Notes: generated by a model not told the origin, from the letters alone. A stretch of DNA of 64,000 nucleotides from Escherichia coli (GCF_003019035.1 NZ_CP027447.1); one strand, 5' to 3'; counted from the stretch's first letter, positions 5,030-5,212 are shown. Program-made: numbers and translations.

Positions 5030-5072
5030 AGGTGACAGTTATATGTAAGGTTTATGACAGTTTTATGACAAA
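5030..5072 (-). promoter_or_regulatory. pstS promoter Pho boxes (PhoB binding sites)
   Basis: Tandem ctgtcataaaactgtcataa-type direct repeats (reverse complement of ggtgacag...ttatgacagttttatgacaa) about 70-100 nt upstream of the pstS ATG. Confidence 0.85.
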
Positions 5073-5212
5073 TCAGAATTATTAATTAACTTTTTGATTT
5101 TATTGACTAAGAAAAAGAAAAGTAGTGTCATCTTTTTGTCATGCAAAGTGAAAACTCGCGGACAAAAATGCGTAAGATGACAACGGTGTGAGGAACACCG
5201 CTGTCAGTTCGT

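What the first reader, a model, noticed from the sequence alone, without database searches (positions are those of the whole stretch)
5041..5212. Fimbrial operon ends about 150 bp upstream of the Pho-regulated pstS promoter with only a weak terminator candidate
The fimbrial genes and pstSCAB-phoU are on the same strand. The only hairpin I see after the adhesin stop is cggtgt-N5-acaccg (5184..5200), which lacks a strong T-run. Read-through from the fimbrial operon into the pst operon, or Pho-box occupancy affecting fimbrial 3' end formation, is therefore conceivable.
Basis: inference. Interest (0 to 1): 0.3.

Follow-up and report, generated by a model that had tools for sequence, protein, structure and literature searches.

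The report
Fimbrial operon end meets pstS promoter
The short gap between a horizontally acquired E. coli fimbrial operon (lpfABCD-O113 type) and the phosphate-transporter gene pstS has no classical terminator, but it does carry a conserved RNA hairpin and apparently an extra, inverted PhoB binding site and an IHF-like site, so it is an organised boundary of modest interest rather than a gap.

Summary
All genes are on the minus strand: glmS, lpfA/B/C-O113, an LpfD-like adhesin (5213-6283), a 247-bp spacer, then pstSCAB-phoU. The adhesin stop lies 141 bp from the first pstS Pho box. No intrinsic terminator is called there.

A classical terminator score is negative for it and positive for glmS terminators.

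The hairpin is conserved in 12 diverged junctions: 94% of cells paired, and three pairs with compensatory changes. I read it as an lpf mRNA 3'-end stem-loop. Termination beyond it is probably Rho-dependent or leaky.

The rest of the spacer also looks constrained. An inverted Pho box (5125-5142, plus strand) scores 17.5 bits, rank 4 in 64 kb. It is as conserved as the canonical Pho boxes (0.94) and absent from K-12. An IHF consensus (5087-5099) is conserved only at its specified positions.

Homology with lpf-less strains starts exactly at Pho box 1.

Read-through into pstS cannot be tested here, and indirect RNA-seq argues weakly against strong coupling. The operon and promoter are known; the upstream elements seem undescribed. 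Interest is low to moderate.

The parts
5213..6283 (-). Last gene of the fimbrial operon: LpfD-like adhesin or minor subunit (356 aa). Stop codon TAA at 5215-5213.
   Evidence: ORF. Pfam Fimbrial domain, E 2.2e-22. RefSeq 'fimbrial protein' following lpfA/B/C-O113 in the identical genome. Called lpfD-O113 in the 86%-identical allele.
5178..5206 (-). Conserved 12-bp RNA stem-loop (TGACAGCGGTGT-TCCTC-ACACCGTTGTCA) starting 6 nt after the stop codon. No adjacent U-tract. Proposed lpf mRNA 3'-end stabiliser or pause element, and at most a weak terminator.
   Evidence: dG -18.8, z -4.7. Inverted repeat I4. 94% of cells paired and 3 of 12 pairs with double changes in 12 sequences, against 0-1 in the slid controls. 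dG is -13 to -21 in all variants. Terminator score is negative. Not called by the terminator scan.
5144..5177 (-). Poorly conserved spacer, pyrimidine-rich with C>G. Candidate Rho loading region.
   Evidence: Mean pairwise identity 0.54. C/G ratio 1.4-5.5 in the first 40 nt after the hairpin across variants. The Rho role is inference.
5125..5142 (+). Inverted Pho-box-like site GTGTCATCTTTTTGTCAT: two TGTCAT half-sites 11 bp apart, centred about 125 bp upstream of the inferred pstS start. It points away from pstS.
   Evidence: TGTCA-N6-TGTCA occurs only twice in 64 kb (0.13 expected); the other copy is pstS Pho box 1. It scores 17.5 bits with a PWM built from 12 published Pho boxes, rank 4 in the window and inside the training range of 14.1-22.4. 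It sits at a constant position, -176 to -178 from the ATG, and scores 17.5-20.1 in most variants. Mean identity is 0.94 against 0.41-0.54 for the flanks.
5111..5120 (-). Conserved T-tract TTTTCTTTTT (an A-tract on the plus strand).
   Evidence: Identity 0.70, with invariant T positions, between poorly conserved spacers. Its role as an IHF A/T element or an UP-like element is inferred.
5087..5099 (-). IHF core consensus AATCAAAAAGTTA (WATCAANNNNTTR), about 84 bp upstream of the inferred pstS start.
   Evidence: Exact match to the pattern. The specified positions are 0.96-1.00 identical and the four N positions 0.43. The motif alone is not enriched: 7 found against 4.15 expected in the window. 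The pstS promoter is reported to be regulated by IHF and PhoB in E. coli (PMC4448153, citing Kimura 1989 and Spira & Yagil 1999).
5032..5071 (-). Canonical pstS Pho boxes (three overlapping 18-mers). Homology with lpf-less E. coli begins exactly here.
   Evidence: PWM scores 20.2-21.9. Consensus search. In genomes without the island the megablast match starts at window position ~5070. Alignment with K-12 and O145.
4966..5031 (-). pstS core promoter (-10 TATTTT at 5021-5016), 5' UTR and ribosome-binding site.
   Evidence: Identical to K-12 in the alignment. Identity 0.98. The -10 assignment comes from established knowledge of the K-12 pstS promoter (from memory).
3925..4965 (-). pstS, the first gene of pstSCAB-phoU.
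10453..10483 (-). Canonical strong terminator after glmS, carried by the island (GGGCUGCC-GACC-GGCGGCCC followed by U7). It serves as an internal positive control and as the left boundary of the replaced intergenic region.
   Evidence: Sequence. dG -24.7, z -4.9. Terminator score +52. It differs from the K-12 glmS terminator.

Best explanation
Positions 4966-5212 are the right-hand boundary of the lpfABCD-O113-type ('lpfB1'/Stg-like) fimbrial island. In about a third of E. coli genomes this island replaces the whole glmS-pstS intergenic region, down to the first pstS Pho box.

The boundary has two modules. Module 1 begins directly after the lpfD stop: a conserved 12-bp stem-loop in the lpf-sense RNA without a U-tract. 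I take it to define and protect the 3' end of lpf mRNA, and perhaps to pause RNA polymerase. Actual termination would be inefficient or Rho-dependent, occurring in the following untranslated, G-poor, AT-rich ~100 nt.

Module 2 is an island-borne extension of the pstS upstream region: an inverted Pho box at about -125, a T-tract, and an IHF consensus at about -84. These sit in front of the canonical Pho boxes at -54 and -32. An IHF bend would fold the inverted PhoB site back alongside the canonical boxes, which could strengthen PhoB occupancy or insulate the promoter.

pstS keeps its own PhoB-dependent promoter. Read-through from the normally silent lpf operon would at most be a minor constitutive input.

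Shown here: gene layout, the hairpin with its covariation, the lack of a U-tract, the motif matches and their conservation, and the exact homology breakpoint. Inferred: the RNA 3'-end role, Rho involvement, PhoB and IHF binding, and looping.
For: Layout and identity.

Extent of the island: 1981 of 5426 complete E. coli genomes carry the whole lpfD-pstS junction. In the rest, the match starts at Pho box 1. K-12 sequence upstream of Pho box 1 has no homology to either end of the island.

Hairpin. Seven G-U cells pair only on the lpf-sense strand, and the plus-strand version folds less well, at -15.1 kcal/mol.

No terminator.

G-poor spacer and constant spacing of 103-108 nt. The O157 lpf2 type shows the same design, a 9-bp hairpin with a pyrimidine-rich tail.

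Inverted Pho box.

IHF-like site and T-tract. IHF regulation of pstS is reported in the literature.

Fitzgerald et al. 2023 found that inert PhoB sites are generally not conserved and that the pstS upstream region is the strongest PhoB target (PMC10294691). That makes a conserved site here more likely to be functional.
Against: No transcript, ChIP or binding data exist for this locus in anything I could reach.

The IHF pattern alone is not statistically enriched.

The inverted box is weakened in strain 2013C-4282 (11.6 bits) and destroyed by a 4-bp deletion in 24A16CRGN010. It is therefore dispensable in at least some lineages.

In K-12, pstS works with only the two Pho boxes and the -10 (Kimura 1989, from memory), so module 2 is not required for Pho control.

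C content after the hairpin is only 17-21% over the full spacer, which makes it a poor classical rut site.

The covariation sample is small (12 sequences, about 8 lineages), and two lineages were found with a pattern that fixed the 3' arm.
Confidence: 0.5

Rival explanations
1. The hairpin is a working, if non-canonical, intrinsic terminator. The upper stem CGGUGU/ACACCG is followed by UUGUCAUCU, and it ends most lpf transcripts at about 5170-5178, so no meaningful read-through reaches pstS.
For: The stem is stable and conserved. In the short-stem reading the tail UUGUCAUC is invariant, with 5 U in 9 nt. The lower stem would then be analogous to the A-tract/U-tract extension of bidirectional terminators. 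There is no pstSCAB co-induction with lpf in STEC RNA-seq.
Against: The terminator score is negative for both the long-stem and short-stem readings, at -21 to -42, while the controls are positive. The scan does not call it. Tails in some variants (UCAGACACC) have almost no U if the full stem forms.
Confidence: 0.2
2. There is substantial read-through. When lpf is expressed, lpfABCD and pstSCAB-phoU form one transcript, which gives PhoB-independent pst expression and damps the Pho regulon.
For: Same strand, no canonical terminator, and an intact pstS ribosome-binding site downstream.
Against: 247 nt of untranslated RNA is a typical Rho substrate. A conserved hairpin and constrained spacing argue for a defined 3' end. 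In 30 STEC strains the lpf genes are +3.3 to +4.2 log2 at an abundance similar to phoU. Despite that, pstS, pstC, pstA and pstB are absent from the differential-expression list, and phoU is at -1.07. That comparison is confounded by gene presence in 15/15 against 10/15 strains.
Confidence: 0.1
3. The inverted Pho box is a PhoB-dependent promoter element. It fires on the plus strand and makes an antisense RNA across the hairpin and the lpfD 3' end, lowering lpf expression under phosphate starvation.
For: The Pho box is oriented towards lpfD, with a conserved A-tract in the position of an UP element. In O157:H7 the lpf2 chaperone Z5223 is 2.2-fold lower in wild type than in a phoB mutant at low phosphate (PMC3978041 Table S3).
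Against: There is no conserved -10 hexamer at the strict 10-nt spacing of PhoB promoters. Only weak hexamers at variable spacing of 6-12 nt are present, and none at all in two lineages. The O157 lpf2 junction, where the Z5223 effect was seen, has only a degenerate box of 11.4 bits. G-U pairs favour the sense-strand hairpin.
Confidence: 0.1
4. The inverted Pho box and the IHF-like motif are not functional sites. They would be tolerated motif matches in AT-rich, H-NS-type DNA, or conserved for an unrelated reason.
For: Most PhoB sites away from promoters are transcriptionally inert, and the PhoB motif resembles AT-rich H-NS-bound DNA (PMC10294691). The IHF pattern is not enriched. Two natural variants have a damaged box. 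K-12 lacks both elements.
Against: Their conservation equals that of the canonical Pho boxes while the flanks have decayed to 0.41-0.54 identity. Within the IHF motif only the consensus positions are fixed. Position relative to pstS is constant. Fitzgerald et al. report that inert sites are not conserved.
Confidence: 0.3

Closest known systems
lpfABCD-O113 / lpf2 / Stg long polar fimbrial operons inserted between glmS and pstS (O island 154 of O157:H7; 'lpfB1' of phylogroup B1 STEC)
   Same: The insertion site, gene order (major subunit, chaperone, usher, adhesin) and strand are the same. RefSeq names lpfA/B/C-O113 in the identical genome. The literature describes the locus between glmS and pstS (PMC6033998; PMC2990770).
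   Different: The adhesin allele is about 86% identical to the lpfD-O113 reference type and is annotated only as 'fimbrial protein'. None of the papers I could search discuss the 3' boundary with pstS.
pstS promoter of E. coli K-12 (two tandem Pho boxes plus a -10; PhoB-dependent; IHF-influenced)
   Same: The Pho boxes, -10, 5' UTR and ribosome-binding site are identical or nearly identical.
   Different: Everything upstream of Pho box 1 is non-homologous. Here it contains an inverted Pho box and an exact IHF core consensus. K-12 has no further Pho-box match of 9 bits or more.
Stem-loops at the 3' ends of Rho-terminated or processed transcripts (stable hairpins without a U-tract that block 3' exonucleases), and mRNA-stabilising hairpins in fimbrial operons such as papA
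   Same: The hairpin is stable, GC-containing, just past a stop codon, has no U-tract, and is followed by G-poor untranslated RNA.
   Different: No 3'-end or Rho-inhibition data exist for this locus. The comparison rests on my own knowledge of these classes, not on a test here.
OmpR-family activator plus IHF looping architectures (for example, the distal OmpR site and IHF at ompF)
   Same: A response regulator of the OmpR/PhoB family has a distal site, separated from the promoter-proximal sites by an IHF consensus.
   Different: This is purely a structural analogy recalled from memory. Neither binding nor looping has been tested, and the distance of about 70 bp is much shorter than at ompF.

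Membership tests
Rho-independent (intrinsic) terminator | Stable GC-containing stem-loop in the transcript | tested here: met
   12-bp stem, dG -18.8 kcal/mol, z -4.7.
Rho-independent (intrinsic) terminator | U-rich tract immediately (0-2 nt) after the stem | tested here: not met
   The tail is UCUUACGCA, and UCAGACACC in other variants. There is no minus-strand hit in the terminator scan. The score is -21 to -50, against +27 to +52 for glmS terminators.
Rho-dependent termination region | About 80 nt or more of untranslated, C-rich and G-poor, weakly structured RNA downstream of the stop codon | tested here: inconclusive
   247 nt are untranslated. G is 8-15% and C/G is 1.1-2.4 over about 105 nt, with C/G of 1.4-5.5 in the first 40 nt. 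C is only 16-21%, however. Rho dependence itself is not testable here.
Pho box (PhoB~P binding site) | Two direct repeats of the TGTCA(T/C) core with 11-bp periodicity and an AT-rich spacer | tested here: met
   TGTCATCTTTTTGTCAT at 5126-5142. Only 2 such matches occur in 64 kb, against 0.13 expected.
Pho box (PhoB~P binding site) | Score within the range of experimentally known Pho boxes | tested here: met
   17.5 bits, against 14.1-22.4 for the 12 sites of PMC3978041 Table S4. Rank 4 of about 128,000 positions.
Pho box (PhoB~P binding site) | Positioned in place of a -35, 10 bp upstream of a -10 hexamer on its own strand | tested here: not met
   No conserved -10 lies at that spacing on the plus strand. 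The site is about 71 bp upstream of Pho box 1 and inverted relative to pstS.
Pho box (PhoB~P binding site) | Bound by PhoB in vitro or in vivo | not testable with these tools
   Published ChIP-seq is for K-12, which lacks this sequence.
IHF binding site | Core consensus WATCAANNNNTTR | tested here: met
   AATCAAAAAGTTA at 5099-5087. The consensus positions are invariant and the N positions variable in 12 sequences.
IHF binding site | More than chance, and actual IHF binding | tested here: inconclusive
   7 matches against 4.15 expected in the window, so there is no enrichment. Support comes only from the conservation pattern. Binding is not testable.
lpfABCD-O113-type chaperone-usher fimbrial operon at the glmS-pstS site | Four genes (major subunit, PapD-like chaperone, usher, adhesin) between glmS and pstS | tested here: met
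   Literature.
REP/BIME-type repeated extragenic palindrome | Multi-copy palindromic element dispersed in the genome | tested here: not met
   The 144-nt spacer occurs once per genome in all 506 genomes that have it. There is no Rfam match.

The most novel reading that the evidence does not exclude
The lpfO113-type island does more than abut pstS. It brings its own conserved regulatory boundary, made of a hairpin, an inverted PhoB site and an IHF site. This boundary would physically couple phosphate signalling to the 3' end of a virulence-associated fimbrial operon. PhoB~P with IHF might form a looped complex that blocks or terminates incoming lpf transcription. Alternatively, the complex might alter pstS induction kinetics in the third of E. 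coli strains that carry the island. In that case the Pho regulon's master promoter would be wired differently in K-12 and in many pathogenic lineages.
Probability: 0.25. Interest if true: 0.5.

Novelty: new variant of a known kind. Interest (0 to 1): 0.32.

Why it matters
pstS is the strongest PhoB target, and the Pst system sets the activity of the whole Pho regulon, which affects virulence in APEC, UPEC and EHEC. About 36% of complete E. coli genomes have a fimbrial operon instead of the K-12 sequence directly upstream of the Pho boxes. Conclusions about pstS regulation drawn from K-12 may therefore not transfer fully to those strains. If the conserved inverted Pho box and IHF site are functional, they would show a horizontally acquired island being fitted with, or selected to keep, a boundary that protects or tunes a core regulatory promoter. 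If they are not functional, the finding is just an ordinary operon junction with a non-canonical 3' hairpin.

Tried and rejected
(1) K-12 'empty site' as a deletion remnant of the island. Local alignments of the K-12 intergenic region against both island ends and the O157-type end score within the range of shuffles. Rejected.

(2) A second hairpin, TTTTTGTC/GACAAAAA at 5133-5168. It is not conserved in other variants, and the region folds no better than shuffles, z -0.31. Rejected.

(3) A long-range helix between TGTCATCTT (5182-5174) and AAGATGACA (5134-5126), repeat I7, acting as a switch. Changes in either partner are not compensated. Rejected: the repeat is explained by shared TGTCAT cores.

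(4) A plus-strand PhoB promoter or small antisense RNA. There is no conserved -10, and the plus-strand reading of the hairpin has a weaker stem and a poor tail, score -39.9. Kept only as a low-probability rival.

(5) A known RNA family. Rfam at permissive thresholds gives only noise.

(6) A small protein. Only TTG/GTG ORFs of 21-33 aa are present, in a region where indels and low conservation rule out coding.

(7) A repeated element. The spacer is single-copy.

(8) Other species. The genome-contig scan with LpfD returned only Escherichia whittamii, which is truncated 11 nt past the stop, and Pseudocitrobacter vendiensis. Salmonella stg could not be reached.

(9) Literature. Nothing in the searchable library covers lpf-pst co-transcription or a Pho box near lpfD. 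Lymberopoulos 2006 (Stg in APEC) is not held.

(10) Metagenome scan. 100 of 120 hits were chance matches, such as a recurrent 130-nt sequence in gut contigs. Only 20 were true junctions.

Full report
**What is there**

The window is E. coli. Positions 4800-5500 are 100% identical to the chromosome of strain ECCNB12-2. All relevant genes are on the minus strand:
- glmS, 10500-12329
- a four-gene chaperone-usher operon: 9620-10192, 8841-9572, 6294-8816 and 5213-6283
- pstS (3925-4965), pstC, pstA, pstB and phoU

RefSeq annotates the first three fimbrial genes as lpfA-, lpfB- and lpfC-O113, and the fourth as 'fimbrial protein'. An allele about 86% identical is annotated lpfD-O113. This is the known long polar fimbrial cluster of the glmS-pstS site, also called O island 154, 'lpfB1' or Stg-like (PMC6033998; PMC2990770). 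The whole lpfD-pstS junction is present in 1981 of 5426 complete E. coli genomes.

**Check of the observation**

The stop codon is at 5215-5213, pstS starts at 4965, and the spacer is 247 bp. The upstream edge of the first Pho box is at 5071, 141 bp from the stop.

Its dG is -18.8 kcal/mol and z is -4.7, and none of 200 shuffles fold as well. The tail is UCUUACGCAUUUUUG, so there is no adjacent U-tract.

The consensus scan calls no minus-strand terminator between glmS and pstC. A d'Aubenton-Carafa-type score, written from memory, is -21 to -50 for every reading and variant of this hairpin. It is +27 to +52 for the glmS terminators of K-12 and of this window. 'Only a weak terminator candidate' is therefore correct, although the hairpin itself is strong.

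**The boundary of the island**

In genomes without the fimbrial operon, similarity to the window begins at about 5070, which is exactly the first Pho box. In the alignment with K-12 and O145 (empty sites) and with an O157-type lpf2 junction, all sequences become identical from TGTCAT of Pho box 1 onward and are unrelated upstream.

K-12 sequence upstream of Pho box 1 shows no similarity above shuffled controls to either end of the island. The sequence after the glmS stop also differs: the island supplies its own strong glmS terminator at 10453-10483. The whole intergenic region is thus an alternative allele, and 5072-5212 is island DNA.

**Comparative analysis of the spacer**

I collected diverged versions of the junction from three sources:
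- an O26 strain, four further E. coli lineages with 72-79% identity in the spacer, and the window itself
- Pseudocitrobacter vendiensis, which has the same lpfD-pstS adjacency
- nine unique sequences from metagenomes

In the 12-sequence alignment A3, the hairpin keeps 94% of cells paired. Three of its 12 pairs show changes on both sides (G-C to A-U, U-A to C-G, C-G to U-A). Structures slid by 1-3 columns give 0-1 such pairs and 18-68% pairing (the 7-sequence version is).

All variants fold to -13 to -21 kcal/mol, and none has a U-rich tail. Seven cells are G-U pairs, which are valid only in the lpf-sense RNA. The plus-strand version of the window hairpin is weaker, at -15.1. This points to an RNA structure in the lpf transcript rather than a DNA palindrome. 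The O157 lpf2-type junction has a different 9-bp hairpin in the same place, again followed by a pyrimidine-rich tail without a U-tract.

**An unexpected second element**

The plus strand at 5125-5142 reads GTGTCATCTTTTTGTCAT: two TGTCAT cores 11 bp apart. The pattern TGTCA-N6-TGTCA occurs only twice in the 64-kb window (0.13 expected), and the other copy is pstS Pho box 1.

I built a weight matrix from the 12 Pho boxes listed in Table S4 of Chekabab et al. 2014 (PMC3978041). With it the site scores 17.5 bits. That is fourth of all positions on both strands, behind only the three overlapping pstS boxes (20.2-21.9), and inside the range of the training sites (14.1-22.4). The best score anywhere else is 14.5.

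In the other junctions the site lies at a constant -176 to -178 from the pstS ATG and scores 17.5-20.1. There are two exceptions: strain 2013C-4282 (11.6 bits) and strain 24A16CRGN010, where a 4-bp deletion destroys it. K-12 and O145 have no further match of 9 bits or more, and the O157 lpf2 type has a degenerate 11.4-bit remnant.

**A third element**

AATCAAAAAGTTA at 5099-5087 on the minus strand matches the IHF core consensus WATCAANNNNTTR. The pattern by itself is not enriched: 7 matches against 4.15 expected.

Across eight lineages, however, the specified positions are 0.96-1.00 identical while the four N positions are 0.43. A T-tract 11 nt upstream is also kept, at 0.70.

The same footprint gives 0.94 for the inverted Pho box, which equals the canonical Pho boxes (0.94). 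The hairpin arms are 0.81 and 0.89, and the intervening spacers only 0.41-0.54. The hairpin-to-Pho-box-1 distance is held at 103-108 nt. The E. coli pstS promoter is reported to be controlled by PhoB and IHF (PMC4448153, citing Kimura 1989 and Spira & Yagil 1999).

**Most likely mechanism**

I read the spacer as a two-part boundary.

First, the stem-loop marks and protects the 3' end of lpf mRNA. It lacks a U-tract and is followed by 247 nt of untranslated, G-poor RNA (C/G 1.4-5.5 in the first 40 nt). Termination is therefore more likely Rho-dependent, or simply leaky, than intrinsic. This step is inference.

Second, the inverted Pho box (about -125), the T-tract and the IHF site (about -84) form an island-borne upstream extension of the pstS regulatory region. 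An IHF-induced bend would lay the inverted PhoB site alongside the canonical boxes in a compatible orientation. Binding and looping are both inferred.

Fitzgerald et al. 2023 showed that PhoB sites away from promoters are mostly inert but also not conserved, and that the pstS upstream region is the strongest PhoB target (PMC10294691). By that yardstick the conservation argues for function, while the two damaged natural variants argue that the site is dispensable.

**On read-through**

Sequence cannot decide whether read-through occurs. The only indirect data I found come from 30 non-O157 STEC strains. There the four lpfB1 genes are +3.3 to +4.2 log2 in the HUS group, at an abundance value similar to phoU. 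Despite that, pstS, pstC, pstA and pstB do not appear in the differential-expression table, and phoU is at -1.07.

This speaks against efficient coupling. It is confounded, because the operon is present in 15/15 strains of one group and 10/15 of the other.

In O157:H7, the lpf2 chaperone Z5223 is 2.2-fold lower in wild type than in a phoB mutant at low phosphate. That is a hint of PhoB influence on the neighbouring operon, but that strain type lacks an intact inverted box.

**Comparison with what is known, and novelty**

The operon, its insertion site and the pstS promoter are all known. A stem-loop without a U-tract at an operon's end is an ordinary feature.

I could not find any of the following described in the searchable literature:
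- the exact coincidence of the island boundary with Pho box 1
- the conserved hairpin
- the conserved inverted Pho box with an IHF consensus upstream of pstS in island-bearing strains

I rate the finding as a new variant of a known kind, with low-to-moderate interest. The read-through idea remains an untested conjecture. The conserved boundary elements are a concrete, cheaply testable lead.

Noticed in passing
window 10453-10499 (minus strand): Sequence diverges from K-12 immediately after the glmS stop codon. The island supplies a different, strong glmS terminator (GGGCUGCC-GACC-GGCGGCCC followed by U7). The Tn7 insertion point lies just downstream of glmS, so attTn7-proximal sequence differs between island-bearing and K-12-type strains.
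   Followed up: partly
window 3839-3924 (minus strand), pstS-pstC intergenic: A very stable extended hairpin, dG -33.1 kcal/mol and z -4.85, lies directly after the pstS stop. It looks like a REP-like or mRNA-stabilising element that could account for excess pstS transcript relative to pstCAB.
   Followed up: no
L012 (E. coli 24A16CRGN010) and L009 (2013C-4282), position about -178 from the pstS ATG: These are natural variants of the inverted Pho box. One has a 4-bp deletion that removes a half-site; the other has a TGTCA to CGTCA change that drops the score to 11.6 bits. They are ready-made comparators for a functional test.
   Followed up: partly
L006 (E. coli strain 132, O157-type lpf2 junction) 1395-1505: The lpf2-type junction has its own 9-bp hairpin after the last fimbrial gene. 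It also has TATCAATAAGTAA, one mismatch from the IHF consensus, at the same 27-28 nt distance from Pho box 1 as in the window. This suggests a shared but decayed architecture.
   Followed up: partly
L001 11542-12701 (ECCNB12-2, just beyond the window's left edge): In this strain phoU is followed by a frameshifted small ORF and a gene annotated 'type III effector protein', instead of bglG as in K-12 and O26. This is a second strain-specific replacement flanking the pst operon.
   Followed up: no
L002 (NZ_CP032679, 'K-12 MG1655', Brazil): This K-12 record lacks pstSCAB-phoU altogether, with glmS followed by bglG. It is evidently a laboratory pst-deletion derivative and should not be used as the K-12 reference for this locus.
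   Followed up: yes
PMC3978041 Table S3 (O157:H7 EDL933): Z5223, the lpf2 chaperone next to pstS, is listed as 2.2-fold lower in wild type than in a phoB mutant at low phosphate. It is the only lpf2 gene in the list.
   Followed up: no
window 62871-62888 (+) and 62734-62751 (-): The next-best Pho-box PWM matches in the window (14.5 and 11.9 bits) lie within 150 bp of each other near the right end of the window. I did not examine which genes they precede.
   Followed up: no
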